64,000 bases of DNA from Eledone cirrhosa (lineage: Eukaryota): positions 8,804,001 to 8,868,000 of the forward strand of contig OZ024751.1 in the NCBI GenBank assembly GCA_964016885.1, given 5' to 3'. A model generated the notes under the pieces. It did no database searches and was not told the origin of the DNA. It worked only from the letters and a program-made list of their open reading frames with translations. Position numbers and translations under genes: made by a program. This document shows positions 1 to 46,335 of the stretch, one piece after another (the first letter of the stretch is position 1; the number at the start of each line of letters is the position of its first letter).

Positions 1-1225
1 AATGCAGATATAGATAGAATATATCTCCCTAGGAAAGGAAGAGGACGTGGGTTAATCCAGTTAGACATTGCGTTGAAAACTGCAACAATTGGATTATCTA
101 CATATCAAAGGGAATCACATAATTGGATGATCAAACTCGTTTTGAAACACGAACGCATCAAAAGAACATACTCCATTACAAAAGATGCACAAAGATACAG
201 TAATGGACTACACATTTCAGAAGTCCCATTTACTACTGAAATAAAAAACACAGAAAAAGCAAAGCAGGTAAAAGTAACTGCAAAGAACGAACTCCTACAG
301 AAACTGGCTTAGAAATGGCAAGAAAAGCCTCTGTATGGAAAATACCCAGAACGAACTAACAATCCTGATGTTGACAAAACTTTAACCCATCAGTGGTTGG
401 CATCCTCTGGACTGAAATCGGAGACTGAAGGACTGATTATATCAGCACAAGATCAGTGTCTGCCAACAAAAAATTATCAAGCCAACATAATAAAAAATGG
501 ATGCAACCCATTATGCCGTGTATGTAAAAAACAACCAGAGACCATTGATCATATAATTTCAATGGTCAGTCCTATAGCTCCAACAGAATACCTAAACAGG
601 CATGACAGAGCTGCACAATACATACATTGGATAATGTGTAAGCATTTTGACCTGCCCCATCAAAAGTATTGGTGGGAGCATCAACCACCTCCCATACTTG
701 AAAAATATCACATCTCAATCTTGTGGAACTTTAGCATCCAAACAGACCGAAAAATAGATGCAAATAGACCTGATATAATATTGAAGGACTTTAAAAAGAG
801 GGTATGCCTGCTAATTGATATTTCCGTTCCAATAGACAAGAATGTATCTATAAAAACATTTGAAAAATTGAGCAAGTATAAGGACCTGGAGATAGAAATT
901 GGAAAAATATGGAAATTGAGAACTAAAACAATACCAGTGGTTGTAGGTGCTCTAGGAATGATTCCTAATGGGTCTAATGATTACTTATCGCAAATCCCAG
1001 GAAACCCGCGTATAGGAGAAATACAAAAGATAGTACTAATGGGAACTGCCCATATACTAAGGAAGATTCTGTCAATATAAGTACATCACAAGTCTAAACA
1101 CCTAAAGATGCATGTGTGAGTATGTATGTTCTTTCTTGAACATGGCGGACCTTGTTGTCTCTTGAGGTCACTGGTTGTGACTTGGTGATAACTCGTATGA
1201 ACATAAACCAAGATAAATGCAACTG
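1..1225 (+). mobile_element. 3' part of an RLE-type non-LTR retrotransposon (R4/Dong-like)
   Basis: One frame runs 1-1080 with a single stop at 310-312. It reads DIDRIYLPRKGRGRGL, Zn-knuckle region CRVC..ETIDHII..RHD, and RLE motif RPDII..LIDISVP..KLSKYKDL. A short 3' UTR ends in (TAA)n at 1226-1244. Confidence 0.9.
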
Positions 1226-7569: not shown

Positions 7570-10370
7570 CTGATTACAAAATAATATATACAATATACAA
7601 GTGGAACCCGTTTCTTCTACAACAACTACAACGGTACGCGATGGGGCCCACCCACAGCCCCGGCGGACAGAATGAAGAAGGCGTTTCCCCGGAGGACGGC
7701 TAGGGAGACGCACTGGAAGAGTCTCTCCAACTCGCAGGGCTCACACCTGCGGCTGGCCAGCTCAGCACCTTTAGTGGTGAGTAAGGAGGTAGCCCTAGAG
7801 CCGAGGACACCAGAAGTCTCCACTGCCAGGGGTACGACCGCAAACCTGTCGGAGAGCGACCGGTATTTGAGGAGTTTGGCCCCCTCAGCCCGACGTGCAG
7901 CAGAAACTCGGTCAGTTGCAGACTGCCTCAGCTTGCGGCTGCAGAAAGTGTCGGTGCAAGTGGCATCCCAGACGAGGGGTTTTCCACCGCGGAACGGGAA
8001 GATGGTCATGCCATCTGGCCTTTTGCCGTCCACTCGATGCAGCCCCACAGGTTTGAGCTGAGAGGGGAAGCCTGCAGCGTCCAAGCCACACTTAATGACT
8101 TCGTTCAGGGCAGCATGGAATGCGGGCAGCATGGAATCAGGGCAGCGTGGAATGCGGGCGACACTGTGGCGAGAGGAAAGCGGGTGGTGGCCGAAAGAGT
8201 CCACAGTGGAACCGCAGCGACATTGGTGTGACTGGCAGATCCGGAGGCCGAGCCTGAGGGAAACGCCGATGCGCAGGCTATGGTTGTCTAGCTGCGTGCC
8301 AGTGGAGAAGTAGGGCAAGGCATAGAGCCAGACACCACTGTGGGGTTTGGAGGCCGCACGAAAACAAGCAAGGCGGAGCCGGTCGAGCTGGCGTGTGAGC
8401 CTGTCTGAAGCCAGGCTGCACTGGATGGCATCCCAAGTACGTTGGGGGGACTTGACGTCAACAGGGGAGAAGGAGGGGGGACGTCTACTGGGCTAAGTCC
8501 CAGCCGGTCCCACGTCTCACAGGCGGCTTCACGTTCTCTGAACACAGATGGTTCTGTTGTGTTTTGAAGAACCCTGCTGATGAGGACGCGCATGAGGTTA
8601 CCGACGAAAGATACGCCGGCAAAGCTAGTGAGATCGGGGACCGGAGGCCAAGGCCGCCATACCTGACAGAAAAAGTGGCCTGTTGCCACCTTATGTCGAC
8701 AAACTTGACGTTGCATATCTCCTCGGCTGCTGTTCGGATAAAAGTATCGAGGTAAGCGAGGAGAGATGTCTGGGTGTAGAACGGAGCGCTGCCGAGTGTA
8801 TGGAGGATCTTCGGCATGGCGAAGCAGTTCCTGAGCAGAAAGAGAGCTGGGTGGCCGTCAATCAAGCCCAGTCGGCTCGTGAGAGTCTGGAGCTATTGAA
8901 GCCTGGACCTGATGGTGGAGTGGATGTCCGGCGGGTGGATCGGTGTCCCGAGGATGAGGACATCCTCTTTGGGGGTCACCTGAACCTGGCGGAGAATGGA
9001 CCGCACGTCCAAGACGGAGGGTGCAAAGCTCGCAGCATCGAGGCTGACATTCACCACCTCCGACTTGGCCGAGTTGACCTGGAGGCCGATTCCCGCCCGG
9101 GCAGGAACCACCGATTGAAGCTCATGGCAGACCGTCCGTACGGGCCCGCCCAACGTAGCATCATCCAGATACCAAACATTGAGAGTGGTCGTGATACTGC
9201 GGGCGATGTGATCAATACCAAGGGCGAACAGCAGGCGTCCCAAAGTGTCACCCTGTTGGAGCCCAGTAGCCGAGGAGGCGTATGAGCGTATGCCACGCTC
9301 TTTCTTCCTGAGAGCAGTGAGGCTTGCCGGAAAAAAGAGGCCTCAAGCGTAAGGGTCCAGGGCGCCATGGATGGGCCTATTGGTGAACGTCACAATTGCA
9401 CTCAGAAGGCGGCGTCCGGCCTCAGTGGAGAGGGGGGGATATCAACTCCTTGACGTGGCCTGGTCGGAGACCATCAACACCTCCGCAGCTGCTAGCTGGG
9501 AAGGACCTGATGGCGGACATGATGTCTGCATCAGAAACCACAAGGAGCAAGTGGGGGTCGGGTGGGGGTATGGGTCGGGTGTTTGAGTCGCAGAGCAGCC
9601 AGGACCTCCTCTGTGTGTTGGAGGACAGTGTCCTCTGAGGCAACAACTCTAACTGCGGCCGAGACATCACCCATGATAAGCTTGGTGTTTATCTGGTCAC
9701 GCAAACGCTTGGCCATGGCCTCGGGGCTGGAGGATAGGGGGCACCTGAGGTTGGGGTGTGCGGCGTCCCTGGACTCGCTTGGAATGGGCGCTTGCCCAAA
9801 GGACGAGACATTGGCCTTGACGAAGGCTGTTGTTGACCGGCCACCTTGGTCAGCGCCAGAGCTGGGGATGCCGAGGGCGAGTGGGATGAAGTAGAACAGC
9901 CGCTCCCAGTCACAGGCTCGATTGGAGTCCAGGGCGCTCTCAAACGAGGAAGCGAGGGCATCGGCTACCGACACCCGTGCCATCCTCGGTATCCTGAGTG
10001 GGATGTTGCGGAGCCGCCTGAGCCTAGCGATGTTGACCAGCGAGGCTTGGGCGCCAGGCCTTCTCGCTGTCCTAGCTGGTGGTGTGCCAGACGAACGTTG
10101 CTGGGAAGACGTGGGGAAGAAGCAGCTCCTGTACCTCCCCGCTGCTAGGGCATTGGAACCTAGACGAGTCAAGCAGACACAGGTGAGGTGGTGGAAGCAG
10201 CCGCACTCTAAACAGTTCCGGTCACTCTACCGTTTGTTAGTGGTACTGCAAGTGCTGCATGTGTCGGTTTGGGGGGATGGGCGTGGGGCCGGGGACTGGG
10301 GCACCGAGTGGAATCGGGGGTGTGTGGGTGGCGTGTGTGGATGGAAGGGAAAGTGCTGGTAAGTGTGCCT
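7570..10370 (-). mobile_element. Degenerate CRE-clade RLE non-LTR retrotransposon
   Basis: Frameshifted fragments SSCGGVDGLRPGHVK, LLFALGI..WYLDD (RT), RYGGLGLRS, and CRCG..GHH..RPDG..LVWDATCTD..K..KY..PLAVETSGVLG (RLE, 7626-8318). Boundaries approximate. Confidence 0.88.
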
Positions 10371-11418: not shown

Positions 11419-11699
11419 TTCCCTCGCACTCTTTCTCTGCCACTCTTCCTTTGTTTCTCTCTCTCTTTCTTCGTTTCTTTCTATCTTTCTTTCTCTCTCT
11501 CTCGGTCTATATATACATATAGAGAGAAGGCGTTCAAGACAAATGAAAAATCAACCCACCTCTGGAAATTAATGTTATAAAATCAATAAAATAATATTTT
11601 CATCACTAACGAATATATAAATATGACAGTCCAGAGATACATTCCGGCTACTAACATAACTGACATGATCACAACGTTTACAGTGAGTCCCCTGTATAT

Positions 11700-14006
11700 A
11701 TATATATATATATATAAACCAAATGGAAACCTGAAATATGTCAACAGACACTCCACCCACCCTAGGAGCATAATTAACTCAATAGTTAAAAGCGTTTCCT
11801 ACAGAGTGTCCACCCTGTCAGCAAATAGAACTATCTTCAACCAGCACGCGGAATACTATAACTCCTCACTTGAAAAGGCTGGATACATTGAGAAGATATC
11901 TTACAATGACCCAACTAGAACCGCAACGCCGCTAAACCTAATCAGACCCTTAGAAATACATGTAGACGAGGACACCACACCTAGAACAAATACTAACCTA
12001 AGACCCTCCTTAGCCGACAGGACAGGCAGCGTTACACACAACTGCCAAGGAGATAAAGCTATACTCTCCAACCCCAATAAGGACTCTGAATATCGCACGC
12101 GTATACCTAGTAATAGAGACCCGAGACATAACGCCAATAGAATAGTAGGATCTCCTATAACAAATACGCCTGACCAAAACACACCCACGCAACCACCAAA
12201 CACCGTAAAGCCCGAAGCAGTCCTGTGACATGGTACAGCGTCCCGTACTCTATACACGTTGCCACCAATATACCGGAAACCTTCTTCAGAGCTCTGGAAC
12301 AATCCTTCCCACCCATACATAAATACCACAAGCTCTTCAATAAACACACTGTCAAATTCTCCTTCTCTACAGGACGAAATCTAGGCGAAACGATGGCACA
12401 CACTAATCGGACAAAATTACGCAAACACATGGTAGCTCCACAACAAACACTAGCACAACCCAGAACGAAACCAAACACACAACACAAAAACCCACATGCC
12501 AGCACCACACAGAATACGAACAACCGAAAACGTGCCATCAAACCTGTCGCCTCCAACTGCAACTGCAAAAAGCGGGTGGAATGCCCACTAAACGGGGAGT
12601 GCCTCGTTAAAAACATTATTTACCGGTGCGATGTCACAGCTGGCAGAAAAGAGTACTCCTATATAGGTGCGACCTCGACTACGTTTAAGGAGTGCTGGTA
12701 TAAGCACAAAAGCTCCTTTAAACACAGGCTCAAACGATCCCAAACTAGACTGGCCGACTTGATCTGGGAACTCAAAGACAAGAACATCGAATTCCAGATC
12801 AAATGGCCAGTTAAAAGACGCGTGGCCCAACTCCCTAGCGACAGAAACCACTGCAGGTTATGTCTGGCCGAGGCGGCTGAGATCATTAAATTGAAATCTG
12901 CCATAAACTCTAGGTCTGACATAATTATAAATTGTAGACACACCAGAATGAACGCCTTCTCTGCACAAATATTCGGCCGAGGGCCACAAACTAATCCTGA
13001 CTCAACATAATGATAACCACTTTTATCTTGCCACACCGCCCCTCATCTAAGTGCATTTGTCTTATATAACATGTAACCCTTTGTAAGTTCAGATTTTGTA
13101 AATATCATGTCGCATCCATCACCCCAACCGCCGCCACCAACAGACACATCGCCATACATCCCTCATCTCAGTACCATTGTGTTCAATCTGTCCTCCCTGT
13201 CAGGTTTGAACTTGTAAACCATCGTAACATCCGATCCTGTAAATAAAATGTCGAACATATCAACCCATCACCACCATACATATCGCTATATGTCAACCAC
13301 CCGTCATCCACAACCTTGTTTCCCCGTGTTCCCTATGTCATTGTTTAACATGTTATCCATCATAAAATTCGATCCTGTTAATATTTTGTCGCACCCACCA
13401 CCACCGCCAGCACCAGGCTCATCTCCATACTTCAACAATCATCAACATCAACACATATCTTCCCTCCCAAAACAACGCATGTGTGTGTGTGTCTGTGTAA
13501 GTATATTTACTTGTACAACGCCATCTCCGCTGGCCCTCTCACTCTATATATATATATTCACATGTGTATGTATACAACGGTTTTGTCAGACTAAGTGTGT
13601 CTATGTATGTATCCCCTTATTGAATTTGACACCACCAACACATTCATCACACCACCGTAATCACCATTACCACAAACAACAAGGCTACACCCACAGCACA
13701 CACACATCAGACTCAGCTACATGCCAATCTGTCCACCGACAACCAGCACCCCCACACACTGCCCACTTCAGTCTGCGACCGTCACCACCATCTTATCACC
13801 ACACCCACACCCACATTCACCACAGGCAAAAACATCACTATGAACTATTCCACCAATCAAAACAAACTTTATTGAATAACATATGAACTTCTGACTTTAT
13901 CATACACCATGTATTCATTCTCTACTAACATTACAAGACGTCCGACGAGCCGCGGTTTACAGATTCTGGTAAGATCGATACAGATCGAAAGTTTCAGCTG
14001 ATCAGT

Positions 14007-14229: not shown

Positions 14230-14490
14230 ATGAAATAACAAAATCAAGTCATTAGAGATATACTTCACTGCTTTACGATCTTTTCTAGATGGTGGTAATA
14301 CATTGTATCCTCACTCAGTTATTGATCTCGTAAGTTTACAAACTATCAGATAGAGCGAATATTTACTTACATGCATAGCACCAGCTGTTTTCAAAAGCAA
14401 TAATAATTTTATTCAATAATAATTTTACACAGAATTAGTATAATTTCCATATTTGGAGGTAGTTGAAGAACTAACGAATCAAATTGTTCT
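14230..14490 (-). repeat. Left arm of a ~260-bp inverted repeat (partner ~20200-20460), PLE-type terminus
   Basis: Reverse complement aligns by eye with 20200-20460. Both arms carry the same hammerhead motif and face (TA)n tracts. Confidence 0.85.
14267..14401 (-). ncRNA. Type I hammerhead motif, U3-A8 core, extended stem II
   Basis: ATTGCTT-TTGAAAA-[~110 nt, base TGGTG/CACCA]-GAAAAGATCGTA-AAGCAGT; stem III has one mismatch. Confidence 0.6.
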
Positions 14491-14637
14491 TTTCATATGG
14501 TGTTAAGATGAAAAGTAATACACATTTGTTGAGGTCATGACCCTTTGAAAGGAATGGTTGAAAGGTGTTAGTAGAAATGGCATAACAATCTATTAGGAAG
14601 GAAGGGGATTGTCAAACTGATAGTTGAATGTATCTTG

Positions 14638-14889
14638 TGTGGTTAGAGAAAGCTATCTCACTTACCGCTTTTCATAGGCGCCGCTAAATTCCACTGCTGG
14701 TCTCTCCTCTTCCACGTGCAACCAACTGCTTAACACCGGGAGCTGCCAAAACTCGCGTCCACACCGTTGCTGGTCACCACTAGAGAGGGCCATCTGCTGG
14801 CCCTTCCGGTCGAGCGTCCTTCCGGCCAAGCACCCTTCCGGTTGAGCACTCGCCCGCTTCCGGCCAACGCACGCCACACCATACCTACA
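14638..14889 (-). repeat. 3' LTR
   Basis: TGTGG...TACA, 252 bp, roughly ten substitutions versus 18557-18808 counted by eye. Confidence 0.95.
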
Positions 14890-15127
14890 CGCCCTGCTAA
14901 TCTCACGGATCAATTTCCCCCTCGTCCTTCTGCATATGAAAGTCTGCTGTCCAGGTTGGTGGTTTACGACTTCTTTGCGATCTCCGCAGAGTTGGGGCAG
15001 CACTTTGGGTTTCCTCTTCCTCGGAGTCCGTTGAAACAGTGATTCTACGGACATCCAGGACGTGACGTGGTACTCCGTCCACGGACACATTGTTCTGGGA
15101 ATTTACGGCCGTCACCGTTCCCCTTCC

Positions 15128-17700
15128 TCATTGACATGTGCAACGTGCATCTGGGGGCTTAAGCCAGACTTCTTCGCCCACCTGCACGAATGGACTCTCT
15201 CTCCCCACTGGCCGTCGTGGTGGCGTGCACGGGTGCCGTGACTCGTATCTGAATAGTGCTCTGTGTGGCACCGATTCCTCGACCTGTCCCACCCGAGAGG
15301 ACATGTTGTACCAGAACACTGCCTCCATTGGTGAGATATGGCCACGCTCCGCCATTGCCTTGATCGTCCGGTGGTGTCGCCCCACAATTCCATTCCCGCT
15401 TGGCGTTGAAGAAACGATCCACCTTCCATCCATCGAGCATCTCCCTCAGCGCCTCCGAGCGGAACGCTGCGCTGTTGTCCATCAGCAGTTCGTCCACAGG
15501 GCCCCGCACCAAGAACACCTCTCTCAACGTCCGCATGATTTCCTCGGCCGTTCCAGTCTTCATCTCCCTCCATATCGCCATCCGTCCTGGTCCACAGTCG
15601 ACCATCGAGAGGTACGTTCCATGTCGGTAGTGCGTTACATCCACTTCCAATCGCTTCCAGTCGTGATCCACCGGGAGGCTTCCCGTTTCGTGTACACCCG
15701 GGGCGGGATCAATGGGCTGACATCGGACGCAGCCTCTAACCACCCTTTGTACACTGTGTCTGTTAACGTGCGAGTCGATTCTCCTGGCTAGGAACAGGCT
15801 CCTATCCACTCCCATGTGGTGCATGTCATGCAACCCTTTCAGATCCGACTCGGTCAGCTGACACACGGCAGCTATCTCATCTTCTACCTCCTCCGGCGCT
15901 TCATTCCAGGCTTTCTTCACCCTAGTTAACATGTCCGCCCTATTTTTCTCTGAGTGCACGAAAACTACGCTCAACCTCAGGTCGAACTCGGTGGCCAGCT
16001 CTCCTAAAGTTCCCAGGCGGTGCTTTATCAGCATCTCCGCGACCCCTCTCATTCGCACTCTATTCTCACTGGTGAGCACTGATCTCACCCATCCGAGTAC
16101 TGTAGCCAAGTCGGTGCGTATCTCGATGGTGCGCAGTTCCCACCTCAGGGAGAGGTTCACCCCTTTCAACACTGCGTCCAACTCGGCCACATTGATGTGG
16201 TTGCAGTCCTCCTTCTTCCTAAGCCAGGCTGCATCCTCGACCTCAACACCTCCTATCTCCAACGTGACACCCAGCGCTATGCTGCTGACATCGCACCATA
16301 CGGTCCCGCTCTGTGATTTGGGAACATACCAGCATCCCCGCCCTGGGTCGTCGGCCTTCACCCTCCCCACGATCTCCTGCATCATGGCCACCGTCCTCTC
16401 TCCCACTCTGTCACTCCAAGTCACTCCTCCCGCTCGTCTCTTGACAGAGCTGCATGCCGTCCGGAGCCACCCAGCAATCGGGTAGTGACCCAACAACTTT
16501 TCACACACCGAGAAAAGCTCCCGCCTACTCATACTTGGGCCCAGTTCTGGAACTTCATTTGCCCTCTGGAATACCAAGACGCCCGTCCTGTCTCGCCGTA
16601 GCCTAAGTTCCAGCGCGGCTCCTCTCTCCAACGCTTCTGACGGCTTCGCAGCCAGTCCATACCCTTGTAAATGGCTCGTGACCTGCGCCGCCGACGCCAC
16701 AGACTCGTCCACTAGGATGTCGTCAATATAGGAGTTAGTGGCGCTCTTCATCTTGTCGGCCTTTACCAGAAAGGTCTTGAGGACCGCCACCATGATCTTC
16801 GGTGCGGAGCTCAGCTCGAAACCGAGCCTGGTCAGACATAATGTCCGGCCCTTATACCTGACCAGCTGATACTGCCAGAGCTTCTCATCTATATGCAATT
16901 GCAAGTATGCCGACTTTAGATCTACGATTGCTCTACCCCCTGTCATGCGTCTCCACTCACGCATGGTTTCCCCACAGACATCTGTGATCTCGCCACCCGT
17001 GTGGCATGACACGTACTCGTTCAGCTCCCGAAAGTCCAGCACCGGCCTCACCTTGTTCTTCGTGGGTTGCGCCACGGCTATTAACGGCAATACTCCGCAC
17101 TTCACCTCCTCTTTCCAGGGAAGCAGTATGCCCTCCTCAATCCATCTCTCTACCTCTCGCTCGAACTCGCTCCTAATGATTCCCTTCAATGTGTGTTGAT
17201 AGCAGTCCACTTTGGTCTTCAGTGCTCCAGTACCACTCAACAACCCATCGCATCCCATCGAACACGGCCTTGAAGTCTTTGTCCTGCACAGTGTAAGCGG
17301 GGTATTTCTCCTCGTGGGCCTTCTGGTTCTCCTGTCGCGCACTCACAGCGCATACCGATGCAGCGGCGCCAAACGACACACCGACGTTGTTCACTGTGAC
17401 GCCTCCTAGACGGCCAATTGCGTCCATGCCCATAACCACGCCGATCTCATCCACTACGCTGTCTACTACGATGGCAGAAAGCCTTATTTTCCTTCCCCGT
17501 ACCGCTATTTCCATCTCGCTGCGACCTCGGCATTCAATTTTCCTGCCGTCGACTGCCCTTACGCTGCTCTTCCCTCTCCACCTCTGCGCCACCCCGCAGT
17601 CACCAGTGTCGTCGTACAGCCCGTGTCCACGAGGGCTCGCTGTGGCTTTCCCCTCACGATGACTTCCACCACGGACAGCGCCTCTACTCGTAAGGGGCAA
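15128..17700 (-). pseudogene. pol (protease, RT, RNase H, DDE integrase), frameshifted
   Basis: ORF 15159-17342 has KVRPVLDFRELN, DLKSAYLQL, LGFELSSAP, YIDD, WCDVSS..HINVAELDAV..NRADMLTR, HHMGV..CVRC, DVTHY and LLMDNSAAF. Integrase continues in 15128-15433 (SGNGIVGRHHRTIK). Confidence 0.9.
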
Positions 17701-17719
17701 CTACCGGCGCAGTAGTGCC

Positions 17720-18430
17720 CCTTGGATCATTTCCCTGGTCGCAGTTAGTAGCGATGTGGCCTGGTCACTTACACCAGTAGCATATTATTTCCGGCCTTGA
17801 TTCTCTACAGTCTCTAACCATGTGTGGGCCCTGGCACCGAAAACAGCGACCACTAAACGTTCGCGGGCGACCGCGTGTCATGGTTGCCTCCTGTTCACCA
17901 TTTCACTGCCAGCTGTCTTGAGCGTCTGTAGTTGCTATCGCCGCAACACTCTTTTTGGCATCTTCTGCTATGATCCGGGCTTGTTCCACCAGTGAACGCA
18001 TTTCCATTTCTTTGTAACCCGGGACTTGCTGCAGTTTCACCGCTATGTCGTCTGGAAATCCATTTATGAACACCAACCGCACCTTGCGTTCGCATTCCAC
18101 CTGATATCCAGCCAACATAGCCAATCGCCGTATTTCGCTGCGAAAATGTCAACGCGTTCACCGTTCCATCTAATTCTTGCCAGCTTAGCGAAAGCGGCTA
18201 ACGGTCCTTCTACGAATGCTACTATCATGCGCCTCTCAATCATTTGCGCATCTCTTTGGCTGTGTTCGTCCAACTCAAGGAAGAGTACCCCCCCCCCCCC
18301 CGAGGTACAGTGCCATGAGGCCAGCCACATCTTCTATCTTCTGCAAGCTTGCGCCCAGCCGGACTTTTCGCAGCCAAGCGACAACATTACCTTCCCCGGT
18401 AAATGCCCTGATAGCTTAGCTTGTTCGTAG
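17720..18430 (-). pseudogene. gag-like ORF with CCHC zinc knuckles, frameshifted
   Basis: Fragments 18064-18330 and 17903-18124, followed by CFRCQGPHMVRDC and a second damaged knuckle. Confidence 0.75.
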
Positions 18431-18544
18431 TCTAGTCGCCATCTGCTAATTTGTCTTACGGTACGTGATAAAAAAAACAACAGACTCCTCTGTTTTTCCA
18501 GTAGCTTTTTTTTTTTTTTTTTCAATCAGATCGCAGTTTCCAGT

Positions 18545-18556
18545 GCCGAAATAGCT
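18545..18556 (-). promoter_or_regulatory. Putative primer-binding site complementary to tRNA-Phe nt 1-12
   Basis: AGCTATTTCGGC directly abuts the 5' LTR. Its complement GCCGAAATAGCT is the 5' end of metazoan tRNA-Phe(GAA). Confidence 0.65.
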
Positions 18557-18808
18557 TATGGTTAGAAAAAGCTATCTCACTTACCGCTTTTCACAGGCGC
18601 CGCTAAATTCCACTGCTGGTCTCTCCTCTTCCACGTGCAACCAACTGCTTAACACCGGGAGCTGCCAAAACTCGCGTCCACACCGTTGCTGGTCACCACT
18701 AGAGAGGGCCATCTGCTGGCCCTTCCGGTTGAGCGTCCTTCCGGCCGAGCACCCTTCCGGTCGAGCACACCCCCGCTTCCGGCCACCGCACGCCACACCA
18801 TACCCACA
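18557..18808 (-). repeat. 5' LTR
   Basis: Direct repeat of 14638-14889. Confidence 0.95.
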
Positions 18809-19239
18809 TCTTGTATAGTGAATTTAAAAGGAATGTCAAAATAAATGGTGATTAGTGTTGTATTGAATTTTAAGGTGAATATAAATTAATGTTATTGCTA
18901 GGAAAGATAGTATATTAAAAGATGAAAATTATAATAAGATAATGTGATATAGTAATGCGATAATATACAACTTAACCAACACAATATAGTACGGTGCGGT
19001 AAATTGCACTCAGTATAATATATCTTATTATACGCTCTAAAATATTACTAAGTATGTTTATGCATAAACTATCAAACTCAGATAAGTACATGTTGGCATA
19101 GTTAAAACACATAAATGTCATAGTCTACAAATTGCATATATTCACACTCCATATATAGAGAGGTACAGTTATATTGATATATAACCAAAATATACATACG
19201 TGCAAATAGATGCAAACCTAAATACACACCCACACGCAT

Positions 19240-19715: not shown

Positions 19716-20288
19716 ATATTTCCATATTATACATAGATGTTTATTTTTACTCATGCAATTACGGGTGGCTGTGTATCTTGTTACTTTTAGTCATTAACGC
19801 ATGAATCTAAGGAAGCTAAAACACTAAAAGGCAAAAATAAGCATGAAAGCATATAATTAGGGGAAAGAGGTACTAATAAATGTTATTCTATACGGAATTA
19901 TAGTGAGTTGCTATTTAGAATATTTAATTAGGTTTATAGTATTTAATTGTTTTTCGTATACTGTGATTACAGACTAGGATTATATCATGTCTTTTATTTA
20001 ATAAATCGTCCTTAGATTTAGTAATTTCCAAGATATCTCCTGAACATAATCTGCATTCCCTCCCGTCTCCAAGATATGGGGTTTTTTGTAGAATGGTGTT
20101 CCACGATAACTTAAAATCTATTTTTTCTTTTTATAATTATTTACCGCTTCAGCTAAAGATGTGGTGTTTGCTAGTTTAGTATTGTTGAAAACTACTAAAA
20201 AAACAATTTGATTCGTTAGTTCTTCAACTACCTCCAAAGATGGACATGATACTAATTCTGAGTAAAATTATTATTGAATAAAATTATT

Positions 20289-20424
20289 ATTGCTTTTGAA
20301 AACAGCTGGTGATATGCATGTAAGTAAATATTATCTTTATCTGATAGTTTGTAAACTTACATAGAGCAATAACTGAATATGGATACAATGTATTATCACC
20401 ATTTAGAAACGATCGTAATGCAGT
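20289..20424 (+). ncRNA. Type I hammerhead motif, U3-A8 core, extended stem II
   Basis: ATTGCTT-TTGAAAA-[TGGTGATA...TATCACCA]-GAAACGATCGTA-ATGCAGT, with palindromic stem III ACGATCGT and a GUA site. Confidence 0.65.
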
Positions 20425-29751: not shown

Positions 29752-31422
29752 TTATTCTTTGTTGCTGTAGAAGGGGAAGATTTTAAAGTTGGGTAGTGTC
29801 ATTCCTGCGCAGTTCGCAATATGGCTGCTCAAGGGGATTTTTCTTGTGCTAGCGTCCCGGATTTGTTGGCGGTGGATGGTCATTCTTTTGCGTAATGCGG
29901 TGCCCGTCTGTCCTATGTAGTTGTGTTTGCACCCACCGCAAGTTATTGCGTAAATCAAGTTCTCCGAGTTGCAGGTGAAATTGTTTTTTACTGTAAATGT
30001 TTGGCCATCTTTAAATGTAAATGTTTGTCCTTCAGTGAGGTAGAGGCACGTTCCACAGTTTGTTCTACCACATTTGGTAACTGTAGGGTTGAGGATTGGT
30101 TTGGGTATATTTGGTCCAGTGAGAATGCGTTTTAGTGATTTGGGTTGTCTTTTACTTTTAAGGATCTTGTGTGTTTCAAGAATAGACTTCATTTTTACAT
30201 CTTTAAGTAGGATTGGGAGGTTTTTGTGTAGGTGATCAAACATTTCGATATTTCTGGGGTTGAAAGTGGATACATATGGCAGGGCGTTGAGTGTGGTTTT
30301 CTGTTTTGGATTGTTAAGTTGATGGGGATTTAGGTGTTTTGCCCTGTCTATTCCATTGTTGATTATTTCAAGTGGAAAGGCTCTTAAGATAAGGGTGTCT
30401 TTTAGTTCCTTTAGTCTTTGCTCCCGTTTAGGTGGATCTGATACTATGGTACATATACGTTTGGCCAAATTGTAAGGAATGTTAAGTTTTGTATGTTTTG
30501 GGTGACTTGATGTGAAAAAGAGGTATTGCTTGGAATCTGTGGGTTTATAGAATATATCTGTATCTAATTTCCCGTCTATTACAGAGATGAGAATATCCAA
30601 GAAGGCTATTTCCTTGGGATTGGATTCCATTGTGAATTGTATGTTATTATCTATGTTGTTTATCATGTTTTTAAACATAGTAAGTGAGTTCATGTCTTCT
30701 TGCCATAGGATAAAGCAGTCGTCTAGATATCTTTTCCAATTGGCTTTGAGGTGTGTGTGGAAAGAGTCTCCAAATAAGAGAAGGGACTGACTGTATATTT
30801 GTTGTTCATGGAATCCCATGACTAGGTTGGCATATGTGGGTGCTACTTTCGTGCCCATTGCCGTACCTGATACTTGTCTGTATGTTGAACCATTGAATGT
30901 GAAGTAGTTATTTTGTAGGATAAAGCGGAGTCCGTCAGTGATAAAATCTTTGTTGATGCGTGTCGGTATTTTTGATGGGTGTGTGTTAAGCCAGTATTGG
31001 ACTGCTGTTATTCCATAGTTGTGGGGTATGTTTGTGTAGAGGTTTATTACGTCAAAGGAGACAAGAATTGTATTTGCACTTACTGTTTTAGGGAGGTGTT
31101 TCAGCATGTCAAGGTCATCTCGTATGTAGCTCTGTATATGTTGTAGAAAGGGTTTCAGTAGGATGTCCAGAAAGTTGCTAAGTCTGTGGGTTTCACATGT
31201 AGGGCCTGCTATAATTGGCCTGAGTTTTAGGTCTTCTGGTGGTGTTAGTTCAATGTAATTGTTGGTTGAGGTGTCACATGCATCGTTTATGGGTTTACAT
31301 TTGTGGAGTTTCGGTAAGCCGTAAAAAGAGCTTGTATTGCATTTGAAGTGGCTTATATAGTTAAACTCTTTTGTGGTTAAGCTGTTGCGGTATTTATTCA
31401 GTAAGGTCAAAAGGTTCCCCAT
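29752..31422 (-). CDS. PLE reverse transcriptase plus GIY-YIG endonuclease (5'-truncated, 556 aa open)
   Basis: FYGLPKLHK, LRPII, SFDVINLYTNIP, GTAMGTKVAPTYANL, RYLDD, FLDI, YKPTD, C..C linker, LIYAITC..C..YIGQTG..RMTIHR. Confidence 0.92.
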   Translation of the reverse strand: MGNLLTLLNKYRNSLTTKEFNYISHFKCNTSSFYGLPKLHKCKPINDACDTSTNNYIELTPPEDLKLRPIIAGPTCETHRLSNFLDILLKPFLQHIQSYIRDDLDMLKHLPKTVSANTILVSFDVINLYTNIPHNYGITAVQYWLNTHPSKIPTRINKDFITDGLRFILQNNYFTFNGSTYRQVSGTAMGTKVAPTYANLVMGFHEQQIYSQSLLLFGDSFHTHLKANWKRYLDDCFILWQEDMNSLTMFKNMINNIDNNIQFTMESNPKEIAFLDILISVIDGKLDTDIFYKPTDSKQYLFFTSSHPKHTKLNIPYNLAKRICTIVSDPPKREQRLKELKDTLILRAFPLEIINNGIDRAKHLNPHQLNNPKQKTTLNALPYVSTFNPRNIEMFDHLHKNLPILLKDVKMKSILETHKILKSKRQPKSLKRILTGPNIPKPILNPTVTKCGRTNCGTCLYLTEGQTFTFKDGQTFTVKNNFTCNSENLIYAITCGGCKHNYIGQTGTALRKRMTIHRQQIRDASTRKIPLSSHIANCAGMTLPNFKIFPFYSNKE

Positions 31423-31630
31423 TGTTTTGGTGTGTTTGTAGTTTTCTGTTTTTTTATAGTATGTGTTGTTTTCTAAAATGTTAAGTGCGAGGGTCCTATT
31501 GTAGACAGAAAAGCACCCGAGCTGCTACCAAGATGAAAACTACTGTGAAAACCCACAATGAATTTTATACTTGAATTTTCAAATCTCAAATTTTAACTCT
31601 TCTTATTATTAATTTTTCTTAATATTAATC

Positions 31631-40903: not shown

Positions 40904-43900
40904 TAGAGCTGAGTTGGAGCGTCTGTGGTTTTTCTCACATCTGGTTGGTCTCATGTGAAAAAGTGGCTCGAAATGCCAGGTTTTTAGAGAAGTAAATTGA
41001 TTGGTTGGTCAATAATTATAATAAATTTCGCGCCAGTTCGCGTTACAAAGTTCTTCAAACAAGGGGGGCTCAGGTTCTTTTTTCATATATGAGTGTCTGA
41101 ATTTCTAAACCCAAACCCAACACGAGTCGAAGGGAATGGGAGATTATCTATGAACTAAAAAACAATACGGACATTATAATTTAGGAAGAGGACAACGGAA
41201 GTACTGTTGTCATTATGGAGGCTGAACAATATAAAACTTCTATGTTTTCTCTCTTACAAAATACTAATTACTATGAAAGAGTAAAAAACTACCAGCAATC
41301 AAAAACAATGACCAGATTAAACACAGTGATTTATCGATACCAGGAAGACCTAACTAAAAAGGAACGCGATTATTTAACACATTTTGAATACAAAACCAGC
41401 AACCTTTCGGACTTCCGAAGATCCACAAGTGTAAACTAATTTACGATGCCTGTAAACAATCCGTCTCAGCCTGCGTGAACACACAATACCCCACAGACCT
41501 TAAATTAAGACCAATTGTAGCGGGCCCACAATGTGAAACACACAGACTGAGCAACTTTATAGACATACTACTAAAACCAATTCTCAAACACATACCAAGC
41601 CTTGTAAGAGACGATCTGGACCTCTTAAACCACCTCCCCAAACATGTCAACAACGACACTATTATTGTGTCTTTCGATGTAGTGAATCTCTACACAACAA
41701 ACCCACACCAATACGGACTAGAAGCAATAGAATTCTGGCTGGAGAAATATCCCACTGAGATACCTGGCAGAATAGAAAAAAAGCTTCATCACCGAGGGAT
41801 TAAAATTCATCTTACAGAACAACTTTTTTTATTTCGATGGCAGTACTTATAAGCAAATATCGGGGACTGCGATGGGTACAAAAGCCGCTCCAACTTATGC
41901 CAACTTAGTCATGGCATACTTAGAAGTCCAGATATATGAACAGTCCAAATCAAAATACGGATTGAACTTCCACAAATATTTATCAGAGAATTGGAAACGC
42001 TACTTGGATGATTGTCTCATCTTTGGTCCCGCACACTCGACCAACTGAAGGATTTCAAAAACTAAATAACGGCATCAATAACCACATCCAATTCACAATG
42101 GAATACAGCCAAGATCAACTCCCATTTCTGGACATCTTAATCTTAGAAAAAGACACAATATTGAAACTGACATACACTACAAACCAACAGATTCCAAACA
42201 ATACCTGCTATTCACCTCCAACCTTCCAAAGCACACGAAGACGAACATTCCTTTTAACCTAGCAAGAAGAATTTGCACAATTGTCTCCAATTATGAAACG
42301 CGAAATAAAAGACTTCAAGAATTAAAGGAAATTCTACTCGAAAGAGAGTACTCGCCATTACTAATAAATAATGGAATAGAAAGGGCTAAAGCAATAAGCA
42401 TTGATGAATTACGTAAACAAAAACAAATTCAAGGTACGTCCCATATTCTCTCATATATCTCAACACACAACCCAAGAAATGCGGCAGCTTACAACACTAT
42501 TAACAAGAACATCCCACCACTAAAACAAAACCCAAGAATGAAAAAAGCCCTTGAAACACACAAAATAATCAAAAGCAAAAGACAACCGAAATCACTGAAA
42601 ACATTACTCACCAATGCCAAATTACCTACCACAAACCCACAACCAAGTGTCAAAAAATGTGGTCGCTCTAATTGTGGAACCTGCACCCACCCCATTGAAG
42701 GCAACACGTATATATTTAAATCAGGACAAAAAATCACTTCACTTGCTCATCAAAAAATCTGCTTTATGCCATTAAATGTAAAGGATGCAATGAAGATTAT
42801 ATAGGACAAACTAAACTCACACTCAGAAACAGAATGACAGTTCATCGCCAACAATTACGAGATTCAACCACGAGACAGATACCACTAAGCGCACATCTAG
42901 ACATATGCACAAGTAATAAGACACCCAAATTCCTAGTCTTCCCATTTTACCTTTGCGCTAACAATACAACAGAACAAATACGAATAAATAAGGAAAATAT
43001 GTTTATTCAAAAATATAGACCAGCATAGATTATAGTTTAATATACATTATGTCAACACCATAACATGCTAACCATCCAAACAGACACATGCACACACACA
43101 CATAACACCTGCTACTTTAGAAAATAAATACCCGAACTAAATAAACCTTTACATACGTTTGCGTTGACAATACAACAGAACAAATACGAATAAGTGAGGA
43201 AAATATGTTCATTCAAAAATCTTCCTACTAAAGGAATCATTTTCCTACACACACACAATATATATATATTCTCTTCATCTTAACATGATGACCATACTCC
43301 CACACACAGAACACCCATACGCACACACATAACCCCCCCATACACAACTCCCTCCCCCATTTCTACTAATAGAATCACTTTCCTACACACATATATACAC
43401 ACACACAAAATATATATATTCTCTACATCTTAACATACTCCCACACACACACACATAATACCCATATACACACACACACAACGCCCTCCCCCATTTCTAT
43501 TATAGAATCATCTTCCAATACACACACACACACACAAGCACACACATAACCATACACATCTTACTTTCTTTATTTCAATAGAAAATCTGAATTCTGACAC
43601 CCCAGCGAACTAACCATATTCACTGAACCAGAAGAATTCTCCCATCCCATTTCTCTTGACCATTATCTTTTGCTTGTCATAAAATTCTCTAAAATGGCTA
43701 CAGAATAGATTTCCAAATAAGGGCGCGAAATTTAATGAAAACTTGTTCACGTGACAGACATAATTTCATAACCTGAGACCCCCCGCCCCTTGTTTGAAGA
43801 ACTTTGTAACGCGAACTGGCGCGAAAATTATTGACCAACCAATCAAATTACTTCTCTAAAAACCTGGCATTTCGAGCCACTTTTTTCCATATAAAACAAG

Positions 43901-44707: not shown

Positions 44708-46335
44708 GGAGGTGAGTTTTATTGTAGTACAATAAAGCAATGTAGATATCGGATAAGAAGCACACTACAATTTGTAGGACTGGAGTATACATAATATATA
44801 AGATCAAAAGATGGTTAAAAGAGTTCCATGTATTTTATTATGCGCATTTCAAAAACAAATATCATCATGCAATAATATTTGTGTTTTCATCAGATAAAAT
44901 AGGAAGACATGATATGAAGGTTAAAAAACACTTGTGAATAGTGCAGTTTTAAATCAACATATGAAAAGTAGTTTTAGATTGATGTGTAATATTGTGAAAA
45001 AAAAAAATTTGAGTGGGGGGGAGATGAGAGTAAAAAGTAGAGGGGAGGAGTATAATGAGGAAGGATGAGATAGGAGGAGAGGATGGGTATATTTTTAAAG
45101 AAGTATATATATGTGCCTTTGAGAAAAGGATTCTAAATTGATAAAGTATTGGATATTAGCTGTACACTTTATGGAATGTTCTGTGGAATTTATGCAAGCA
45201 GAGAGAAAACAAGTCAGTGCGTCTATTTATTATAGAATCTAAATTAGATATAATGGTAAATTTTTCATTTAGACAGAGATTGCAAGTCTTGGATAGAGAA
45301 CTGTTCGGAGTAGAAGAAACCTTTTCCCAAGAGATGTTATATTTAATATTTTTGTCTTTCAAGGACCATATGAGTTCTGAGAGAGCCGTGTTGGTTCTTT
45401 TAAGTTGGTATTTCAAAGACGAATGATGATTATAAAGACTAGCTTTAAAGGAGGTGGAAGTGGAGCCAAAATAGGTGAAGGAATTGGTGTCAGTTATAAC
45501 TTTACATTCGTAGATTAAATTGAGAGGACATTTATTTTTAACAGGGCAATTGCAATTGCGATTAGAGAGATTATTAACGAGTGACCTAGTGTTATCTAGC
45601 AATTGGATTGGAGAAGTTATTTGCGATAGGAATAATAGTTTCTTGATTTAGAATGGGATTAAGAACATTTAGCGAAGTTCTGTTTGACGTTGTATTTGGG
45701 TTTGCAGAAATTAGCCTAGAGTTTACAATAACGTCGGGAGTACTATTACTATTATTATGATATCCAGTGTTGGAAGGAAGAGATTTAGTATTTAGTATTT
45801 TATTGTTGTGTTTAGAGATAATGTTGGAAATGTTGGAGGATGTCGAATAAGAGAATTTTATAGTGTGTTTGTTAAATATTTTACTATAGATATGTGAAGG
45901 AGGGAAGCATTTATTTAAGGCACTAACAAATAATTTAGGAATATTGTTATTAATAGAGATGGAAAAAGGAGCATGATACCAGATTATGTTTTTGTATCTA
46001 GGTCTTTTATTAAAGTTATTGGAATGATCATGATTAATTATTCTACTGTAAGATCTAGAATTTGTTTCTTTACTATATTTGATTTTATCAGGATAGCCGG
46101 CTTTAGAAAGCGCGTTATTATAGTAATTGGCGTTAGCATCAAAGATATTTTTATTAGAAGATAGGTTAGATTTTATTTTTCCAATATTACTAACTATAGC
46201 ATTCTTAATATTAGTGCACTATTTACAAGTGTTTTTTAACCTTCATATCATGTCTTCCTGTTTTATCTGATGAAATGCGCATAATAAAATACATGGAACT
46301 CTTTTAACCATCTTTTGATCTTATATATTATATAT
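44705..46335 (-). mobile_element. 5'-truncated Penelope-like element with an inverted terminal copy
   Basis: GIY-YIG 45156-45602 (CNC..CPL..IYECKV..YFGSTSTSFK..LSELIWSLK). 46215-46330 is an inverted copy of 44795-44945. Confidence 0.87.
44831..44901 (-). ncRNA. Type I hammerhead, canonical core, apparently intact
   Basis: TATTTTAT-CTGATGA-[AAACACAAATAT..ATATTTGTTTTT]-GAAATGCGCATA-ATAAAATA; palindromic ATGCGCAT. Confidence 0.85.

What the first reader, a model, noticed from the sequence alone, without database searches (positions are those of the whole stretch)
14638..18808. Compact LTR retrotransposon with DIRS-like RT/RNase H but DDE integrase, direct LTRs and 5-bp TSD
Seen: only 4.2 kb, order gag-PR-RT-RH-IN. 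RT reads RPVLDFRELN / DLKSAYLQL / LGFELSSAP, and RNase H reads WCDVSS..HINVAELDAV..NRADMLTR. Known: HIN.xEL.AV and DLK.AY..FGLSSAP are typical of DIRS elements, which use a tyrosine recombinase and lack a protease, DDE integrase and TSDs. Gypsy RNase H has the YS..EKE.LA pattern, absent here. Inference: it belongs outside Gypsy/Copia/BEL. It may correspond to the little-studied Troyka group, which I cannot verify.
Basis: partly seen in the sequence, partly recalled or inferred. Interest (0 to 1): 0.75.

Follow-up and report, generated by a model that had tools for sequence, protein, structure and literature searches.

The report
Unnamed retrotransposon lineage with unusual primer
This is a decayed copy of a small jumping gene from a widespread animal lineage that forms its own branch apart from the Gypsy, BEL and DIRS groups sampled and is not Troyka; its primer site matches the first 12 bases of a tRNA, so it likely starts copying itself in a way other than the three described so far.

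Summary
The anatomy is confirmed: a 4,171-bp minus-strand LTR retrotransposon with 252-bp LTRs (96% identical), TG...CA ends and a 5-bp TSD. Empty sites in 4 of 4 runs confirm the ends. The copy is decayed.

It is not Troyka (termini, TSD, zinc knuckle and catalytic motif all fail), and it is not specifically DIRS-like. Hundreds of relatives (named hosts: a sponge, molluscs, arthropods; all marked by Pfam DUF7047) form their own RT/RNase H clade outside Gypsy. The best-fitting position is sister to BEL, but this is unresolved.

New here: 52 of 77 family loci carry a 12-nt motif abutting the 5' LTR instead of a TGG primer site. In this copy it is the exact complement of nucleotides 1-12 of animal tRNA-Phe. 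Its variants switch in blocks at the positions that pair with the variable acceptor stem. I infer priming by a 12-nt 5' tRNA fragment, a fourth priming mode. A conserved hairpin precedes the polypurine tract (16 of 19 loci).

Ten paper searches found no description; Repbase and subscription journals were not searchable. The scan's own index held no look-alike sequence.

The parts
18809..18813 (.). target-site duplication copy (TCTTG on +)
   Evidence: empty-site joint skipping 4,176 bases
18557..18808 (-). 5' LTR, 252 bp, begins TG; its inner end carries one substitution relative to the 3' LTR
18545..18556 (-). 12-nt primer-binding site abutting the 5' LTR, exact complement of nt 1-12 of human and Drosophila tRNA-Phe(GAA); no TGG-type site
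   Evidence: paper passages; conserved in 52 of 77 loci
17741..18442 (-). gag remnant (capsid + two zinc knuckles, CX2CX3HX4C and CX2CX4HX4C), broken by stops and frame changes
   Evidence: relatives' Gag folds as an ortervirus capsid
17203..17700 (-). aspartic protease (LVDTG) and linker; frame change before RT
   Evidence: PF13975/PF13650 in relatives
16355..17150 (-). reverse transcriptase, YIDD at 16730; Pfam DUF7047 (ORF residues 272-329) aligns with the RT thumb region
15920..16313 (-). RNase H, D-E-D-D positions retained, HINVAELD motif, directly after the thumb (no tether domain)
14915..15833 (-). HHCC + DDE integrase with C-terminal domain lacking GPY/F; broken in this copy
14890..14912 (-). 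decayed polypurine tract and the short hairpin that precedes it in relatives
14638..14889 (-). 3' LTR, 252 bp, ends CA
14633..14637 (.). target-site duplication copy (TCTTG on +)

Best explanation
This is a decayed full-length copy of a compact LTR retrotransposon from a widespread, apparently unnamed animal lineage with its own RT/RNase H clade, which likely primes reverse transcription with a 12-nucleotide fragment cut from the 5' end of a host tRNA (tRNA-Phe here). SHOWN: LTRs, 5-bp TSD, gag-PR-RT-RH-IN, capsid fold, separate clade, and a 12-nt site abutting the LTR that is complementary to tRNA nt 1-12. INFERRED: Gag packages the RNA. The site displaces the 3' strand of the acceptor stem and pairs with nt 1-12. 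The tRNA is cut after U12, most likely by the element's own RNase H (as recalled for the RNA duplex of Tf1), otherwise by a host nuclease. Minus-strand DNA starts at that 3'-OH. Plus-strand strong-stop synthesis copies the primer and runs off the tRNA's 5' end, so the site is exactly 12 nt and is rewritten from the host's tRNA each cycle. The G-rich tract with its upstream hairpin primes the plus strand, and the DDE integrase makes a 5-bp TSD. Its nearest kin by RT/RNase H is most likely BEL/Pao, unresolved.
For: LINEAGE. 426 homologues at E<=0.001 among 8,000 scored, the best 120 at 51-66% identity; all 120 carry PF23088, none PF17917/17919 or PF05380. The family RT-RH profile scores 14 full family proteins at 454-598 bits (one fragment 110) and the best of 38 non-family proteins at 73. 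Own clade 99/91/100 SH-aLRT, joined to BEL at 88/96/92. AU on 45 rows x 366 columns: BEL sister best (p 0.86, 0.87), nesting with Mag rejected (0.021, 0.004). A one-residue-shorter N-x-AD at the RNase H end occurs in 42 of 44 family and 30 of 30 BEL, 0 of 38 Gypsy and 0 of 8 YR; D..KA[FY]LQ-type motif in 34/44 and 26/30 vs 1/38 and 0/10. PRIMER. The motif was first seen without a pattern search, after the self-aligned LTR end of L007, L040, L046 and L048. Strict motif in 52 of 77 loci, 47 distinct contexts, against 1.3 chance matches per shuffled set; 2 relaxed matches on the reverse strand vs 56 forward. It follows ACA directly, and the base after position 12 is variable. The window's version equals the end of a published antisense probe to the tRNA-Phe 5' end. 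A second common variant is complementary to the first 12 nt of a tRNA-Phe(GAA) gene in L209. Seven discrete variants need 12 changes on a 30-row tree, with two-base switches between sister rows (L007/L008, L019/L026). No self-complement in the LTR above control in 40 loci. Neumann et al. 2019 list three primer types: whole tRNA 3' end, half tRNA cut in the anticodon stem, self-primer (PMC6317226, passages).
Against: No primer RNA or cDNA end was observed; priming is inferred from sequence. The conserved positions of the strict motif are partly fixed by my search pattern. Host tRNA genes were matched for only 2 of 10 variants, and the L209 gene is from a viral contig, not a known host. Hosts of the metagenome loci are unknown. 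The BEL-family join carries a long-branch warning. AU does not reject a YR sister (0.06, 0.13) or a Gypsy+caulimovirus sister (0.25, 0.21). The RT core profile is closest to Gypsy, not BEL. Gag hits the Gypsy-type PF03732 in 13 of 31, and the integrase tree puts the family beside Mag-like Gypsy (91, unstarred; no alternative rejected). References were incomplete: no Copia, Troyka, VIPER/TATE or hepadnavirus rows, and the BEL rows were the hits nearest one nematode seed. With DUF7047 clusters skipped, the Atlas's nearest look-alikes are 495-550-aa proteins (Euglenozoa, Mollusca) of the size of YR-element RT-RH ORFs.
Confidence: 0.7

Rival explanations
1. A highly divergent basal branch of BEL/Pao (Belpaoviridae) rather than a separate superfamily-level lineage.
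For: Sister to BEL in all three RT/RH trees, best AU tree, shared N-x-AD indel, D..KA[FY]LQ, VLG[LIV] and T[KR]R.L motifs, best RNase H profile score.
Against: No PF05380 or PF18701 in 33 RT-RH members scanned or in the 120 listed homologues. The BEL HMM scores family RT at a median of 17 bits against 371 for BEL. Gag is about 250 aa with two knuckles and PF03732. Stem branches of 1.5 and 2.2 substitutions per site separate the two groups. The integrase does not group with BEL in the free tree.
Confidence: 0.2
2. A chimera: DIRS/VIPER-type RT-RNase H that acquired a protease, DDE integrase and LTRs.
For: HIN..E in 44 of 44 family and 3 of 8 YR rows; DIRS-1 reads RPVLD...DIKKAYL in a paper supplement; Atlas neighbours; AU p 0.06-0.13, not rejected.
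Against: Never the best tree; YR elements are closer to Gypsy than to this family in both domains (218 vs 116, 111 vs 61); the family lacks the [FYW]LG motif found in 9 of 10 YR and 36 of 38 Gypsy RTs.
Confidence: 0.12
3. A fast-evolving Ty3/Gypsy clade, possibly already catalogued under a Gypsy or MolGy name.
For: Gypsy domain order, 5-bp TSD, PF03732 Gag, RT core profile nearest Gypsy, integrase beside Mag. Thomas-Bulle et al. 2018 name 16 MolGy clades without motifs (PMC6238403, section 6), which I could not compare.
Against: Outside Gypsy in all RT/RH trees, also without BEL; nesting with Mag rejected; PF17917 in 1 of 33 at E 0.07; family RT motifs absent from the reference alignments of Gong and Han 2024.
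Confidence: 0.13
4. The lineage is real, but the 12-nt motif is not a primer site (a packaging, translation or integrase-binding signal), and priming happens otherwise.
For: The gag ATG lies only 0-43 nt behind it in relatives, so it could act on translation or packaging; no direct primer evidence.
Against: Position flush with the LTR end, exact complement to tRNA nt 1-12, variation concentrated at positions pairing with tRNA nt 4-7, no TGG site, no self-complement.
Confidence: 0.15

Closest known systems
BEL/Pao (Belpaoviridae)
   Same: PR-RT-RH-IN order, TG...CA LTRs, animal hosts; best-fitting sister in RT/RH trees; shared RNase H indel and several RT motifs
   Different: No Peptidase_A17/DUF5641, short two-knuckle Gag, 4.0-4.3 kb elements, HIN..EL instead of IPRLE, 5'-tRNA-type primer site
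Ty3/Gypsy (Metaviridae), incl. Mag lineage
   Same: Domain order, 5-bp TSD, PF03732/Arc-like capsid, RT core profile nearest, integrase near Mag in one tree
   Different: RT/RH outside the clade, no RT_RNaseH Pfams, no GPY/F (0 of 29 vs 13 of 38), different primer site
DIRS/Ngaro tyrosine-recombinase retrotransposons
   Same: HIN..E RNase H motif and some RT motif wording
   Different: Has protease, DDE integrase, direct LTRs, TSD and capsid; no tyrosine recombinase; not the preferred sister
Troyka = Kuafuorterviruses (Kojima 2025 PMC12440569; Gong and Han 2024 PMC11673190)
   Same: A precedent for an overlooked aquatic-animal LTR lineage with Gypsy-like domain order, no tether and no GPY/F
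   Different: Troyka has CG...CG ends, 3-bp TSD, CX2CX8-10HX4C, [IVL]ADD and RLVTAF/AMGMPGSE RT motifs; this has TG...CA, 5-bp TSD, CX2CX3-4HX4C, YIDD
Half-tRNA priming (copia, Ty5, Osser, Bianca) and Tf1 self-priming
   Same: Works like them: the primer 3'-OH must be made by cutting an RNA
   Different: Those cut in the anticodon stem or cut the element's own RNA; here the pairing is to tRNA nt 1-12, implying a cut in the D stem

Membership tests
LTR retrotransposon (Ortervirales-type) | Direct LTRs with TG...CA and a 4-6 bp TSD | tested here: met
   relatives: 5-bp TSD perfect in 1 of 4 loci with both flanks, 4 of 5 bases in 2, none in 1
LTR retrotransposon (Ortervirales-type) | Capsid-fold Gag with zinc knuckles, protease, RT, RNase H, DDE integrase | tested here: met
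   Gag model of relative L026 (pLDDT 86): MLV capsid Z 13.0 (rmsd 4.7, 174 aligned), copia, Arc; RT-RH fold; integrase hits
Troyka/Kuafuorterviruses | 5'-CG...CG-3' termini | tested here: not met
   TG...CA in window and relatives; definition
Troyka/Kuafuorterviruses | 3-bp TSD | tested here: not met
   5 bp
Troyka/Kuafuorterviruses | CX2CX8-10HX4C knuckle and [IVL]ADD catalytic motif | tested here: not met
   knuckle spacers of 3-5 in all 34 Gag ORFs with knuckles, of 51; YIDD in 89 of 120, other [FY]xDD in most of the rest; definitions
Troyka/Kuafuorterviruses | RT clade membership | not testable with these tools
   no Troyka sequence could be fetched; compared by eye only with supplement rows
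Ty3/Gypsy | PR-RT-RH-IN order | tested here: met
Ty3/Gypsy | RT/RNase H nest within the Gypsy clade | tested here: not met
   outside; nesting with Mag rejected; only that one nesting was tested, with 14-25 Gypsy rows
Ty3/Gypsy | Gypsy-type RNase H (PF17917/PF17919) | tested here: not met
   1 of 33 at E 0.07; 0 of 120
BEL/Pao | Peptidase_A17 (PF05380) region and IPRLE-type RNase H | tested here: not met
BEL/Pao | RT/RNase H inside the BEL clade | tested here: inconclusive
   sister, not nested, but the BEL rows derive from one seed and lack verified Pao/Sinbad/Suzu references
DIRS/Ngaro (YR elements) | Tyrosine recombinase; inverted or split repeats; no TSD | tested here: not met
   DDE integrase, direct LTRs, TSD
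DIRS/Ngaro (YR elements) | RT/RNase H grouping with YR elements | tested here: inconclusive
   not the best tree, AU p 0.06-0.13; 8-10 YR rows, no VIPER/TATE
Ty1/Copia | Integrase before RT | tested here: not met
Described primer types | Site complementary to a tRNA 3' end (TGG...) | tested here: not met
Described primer types | Self-priming: complement of the site in the LTR | tested here: not met
   best upstream match 6-9 of 12 in 39 of 40 loci (one 11), same as the downstream control
Described primer types | Half tRNA cut in the anticodon stem | tested here: not met
   the match is to nt 1-12 of tRNA-Phe

The most novel reading that the evidence does not exclude
An undescribed superfamily-level lineage of LTR retrotransposons (a candidate further Ortervirales family beside Troyka), present from sponges to molluscs and arthropods, that uses a fourth, undescribed priming mode: it cuts a 12-nt primer from the 5' end of host tRNA-Phe/Lys-type tRNAs with its own RNase H, and its primer site records the host's tRNA.
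Probability: 0.45. Interest if true: 0.88.

Novelty: new variant of a known kind. Interest (0 to 1): 0.76.

Why it matters
A fifth LTR superfamily (Troyka/Kuafu) was only proposed in 2024-2025. This would be another overlooked one, already with hundreds of sequences hiding as 'hypothetical protein' with DUF7047. Standard primer-site finders that look for TGG would likely miss it. Priming from a 12-nt 5' tRNA fragment would add a fourth way to start reverse transcription, give 5' tRNA fragments a role in retroelement replication, and is directly testable in vitro. Because the site would be recopied from host tRNA, it could also mark host switches. As a lineage near the BEL/DIRS/Gypsy split it bears on the unresolved root of reverse-transcribing viruses.

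Tried and rejected
No host genome is held, so copy number and host tRNA genes could not be read. No family member in viral contigs.

Motif scans for BEL, Copia and DIRS references in viral contigs gave chance hits or one decayed Copia piece, so Copia is absent from the trees.

treekit AU runs did not finish on one CPU. They were replaced by constrained IQ-TREE searches on 45 of the 70 rows. The first fast version gave p 0.58 for a YR sister, and I rely on the more thorough.

A separate origin of the sponge subfamily's integrase was suggested, but AU does not reject grouping (p 0.37; two constrained searches were cut by time), so it is not claimed.

Self-priming was considered because the window's LTR has a partial complement 25 nt upstream; it is at control level. 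Sailor/Sparrow/Surcouf are ordinary Sinbad-related BEL clades. Thumb-region profile comparisons were uninformative. Fold searches of RT-RH give all ortervirus RTs at 10-19% identity with no near neighbour. No Rfam match above gathering score. No RNA holder listed.

Paper searches that found no description of this lineage or primer. Supplements of PMC12440569 could not be read, and 3 of 14 files of PMC8556966 were not searched; both may bear on novelty.
Full report
1. Observation. The element spans 14638-18808 on the minus strand. It has 252-bp direct repeats (10 mismatches, K2P 0.041), TG...CA outer ends and TCTTG on both sides. Laying four public runs on it gave, in 4 of 4 runs from 3 studies, a joint from 14631 to 18808 skipping 4,176 bases, the element plus one 5-bp copy. 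Loose ends at 14638 and 18808 fit other insertions with the same ends, and 4,330 contigs of one run were laid, which indicates many copies. The target is a host repeat, so the empty forms may be paralogous. Pfam finds DUF7047 (E 2e-19), rve and weak RVT_3/H2C2. The copy is decayed: stops and frame changes in gag, frame changes near 17,210 and 15,410, and a damaged integrase.

2. The family. The ORF has 426 homologues among 8,000 scored candidates. The best 120 (51-66% identity) all carry PF23088 and none carries Gypsy RT_RNaseH or BEL Peptidase_A17 Pfams. Named hosts are Argonauta, Aplysia, Oratosquilla, Petrolisthes, Nymphon, Trinorchestia and, for a divergent single-ORF subfamily, the sponge Sycon ciliatum; most records are unnamed. 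A metagenome scan gave 76 loci. Relatives with both LTR ends in view are 4.0-4.3 kb, usually with a separate Gag of about 230-280 aa and a Pol of about 950 aa. A relative's Gag folds as a two-lobed ortervirus capsid (MLV Z 13.0, copia 10.9, Arc 9.2-9.7) and hits PF03732 in 13 of 31. DUF7047 aligns with the RT thumb region, and RNase H follows without a tether.

3. Position among retroelements. References came only from tools. They were 35 Gypsy-type proteins, one BEL and one retrovirus-like protein from two searches of longer proteins; errantivirus-like and caulimovirus contigs; 10 DIRS/Ngaro-type elements in contaminant contigs of genome bins; and 150 BEL hits, 30 used. Group labels rest on Pfam content and motifs. 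The family profile scores its own full proteins at 454-598 bits and the best outsider at 73. With 73 rows (RT) and 70 rows (RH, RT+RH) of 124 and 121 extracted, the family is one clade (99, 91, 100) on a stem of about 1.5. It is joined to BEL at 88, 96 and 92 with a long-branch warning. Without BEL it stays outside both Gypsy (98) and YR (88). AU tests on 45 rows favour a BEL sister (p 0.86 LG, 0.87 C20) and reject nesting with Mag-like Gypsy (0.021, 0.004). They do not reject a YR sister (0.06, 0.13) or a Gypsy+caulimovirus sister (0.25, 0.21).

Discrete characters side with BEL: N-x-AD in 42 of 44 and 30 of 30 vs 0 of 38 Gypsy and 0 of 8 YR; VLG[LIV] 36/44 and 21/30 vs none. HIN..E is shared with YR (44/44; 3/8). 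Profile scores are mixed: RT core Gypsy 149, YR 116, BEL 66; RNase H BEL 85, Gypsy 64, YR 61. YR and Gypsy score 218 and 111 with each other, so the family is further from every sampled group than DIRS is from Gypsy. The integrase is unresolved. Copia, Troyka, VIPER/TATE and hepadnaviruses are missing from the trees.

4. Not Troyka. Kojima 2025 (PMC12440569; main text read through the start of the references; supplements unavailable) defines Troyka by CG...CG ends, 3-bp TSDs and CX2CX8-10HX4C. Gong and Han 2024 (PMC11673190; main text; supplement searched) add [IVL]ADD. All fail here, and their RT rows read quite differently. The family's RT motifs were not found in their reference alignments, apart from RPVLD in DIRS-1 and AYLQL in one Gypsy row.

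5. The primer site. Self-alignment of relatives showed the same 12-mer after the 5' LTR in L007, L040, L046 and L048, as in the window at 18545-18556. A strict pattern finds it in 52 of 77 loci (47 distinct contexts, 10 variants), against 1.3 by chance. Of the 25 without it, 20 gave no hit to the start of Gag. Of the other five, one has a one-base-longer version, one contig starts inside the motif, one starts inside gag, one is decayed and one shows nothing. The window's version (14 of 47 contexts) is the exact complement of nt 1-12 of human tRNA-Phe(GAA) and is the end of a Drosophila tRNA-Phe 5' probe (PMC11706605 and PMC7038984, passages). The second commonest variant (13 of 47) complements the start of a tRNA-Phe gene in L209. 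ARAGORN places GCC-N4-TAGCT at the 5' end of 35 tRNA genes among 39 viral loci chosen by that pattern. One variant matches tRNA-Lys(CTT) from recall only.

Variation falls at the four positions that would pair with acceptor-stem nt 4-7. It comes in discrete blocks and needs 12 changes on a 30-row tree; the base after position 12 varies. Self-priming is not supported. The gag ATG follows within 0-43 nt in relatives. At the other end a G-rich tract abuts the 3' LTR and is preceded by a perfect stem of 5-7 bp with varying sequence in 16 of the 19 distinct loci where the tract was found (shuffles: mean 0.68, max 3 of 300).

6. Mechanism. Shown: structure, clade, site, complementarity. Inferred: the site pairs with tRNA nt 1-12 and a cut after U12 makes the primer. 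By analogy to Tf1 (recalled) the cutter is most likely the element's RNase H. Plus-strand copying runs off the tRNA 5' end, which fixes the length at 12 and rewrites the site from host tRNA; this would explain the block switches. Neumann et al. 2019 (PMC6317226, passages) and Kojima 2024 (PMC10886601, passages) list tRNA 3' ends and anticodon-region halves; Neumann adds self-primers (also PMC6934838, passages).

7. Novelty. Ten searches of the open library found no description of DUF7047, this lineage or this primer type. The mollusc and annelid surveys (PMC6238403 passages and section 6; PMC8556966 passages and 11 of 14 supplements) describe BEL and Gypsy clades without data that let me exclude that one MolGy clade is this family. 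Repbase, Dfam and subscription journals were not searchable, so prior cataloguing remains quite possible. The scan's own index had no look-alike sequence; three word hits concerned other elements.

Verdict: a new variant of a known kind, candidate superfamily with a candidate fourth priming mode; confidence 0.7, interest 0.76.

Noticed in passing
family loci, e.g. L015, L020, L027, L033, L035; window 14890-14912: A 5-7 bp hairpin with varying sequence sits immediately upstream of the polypurine tract in 16 of 19 loci; role unknown, perhaps plus-strand primer selection.
   Followed up: partly
proteins P0124-P0134 (P0124 cluster named Sycon ciliatum): A subfamily with one 1,380-1,460 aa Gag-Pol ORF has the family's RT/RNase H but a longer, Gypsy-looking integrase region; it falls apart from the main family in the integrase tree, though grouping is not rejected. 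Its primer site could not be seen.
   Followed up: partly
window 14301-14637, 18814-19000 and 20197-20390: The element inserted into a high-copy AT-rich host repeat; a second, inverted copy of the left flank (92% over 194 bp) lies 1.4 kb beyond the element, so the target may be a terminal-inverted-repeat element.
   Followed up: no
window 313-1080, 7626-10226, 11590-13010, 29752-31524, 42082-42804, 45592-46218: Other decayed retroelements by their ORFs: non-LTR elements with restriction-like endonuclease motifs and several Penelope-like GIY-YIG elements (labels recalled from motifs).
   Followed up: no
L161-L170: Ten of ten hits to a DIRS-type RT motif in prokaryote genome bins are eukaryote-like tyrosine-recombinase retrotransposons, most likely contamination of those bins; L164 lies in a 1.5-Mb contig labelled Nitrospirales.
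   Followed up: no
proteins P0121, P0122, P0135: Family pol sequence is fused into host gene models annotated as DNA primase, GCN2 kinase and a Tc1 transposase, most likely mis-predicted insertions.
   Followed up: no
L059:about 1980-2000: A primer-site variant one base longer than the usual 12 nt.
   Followed up: no
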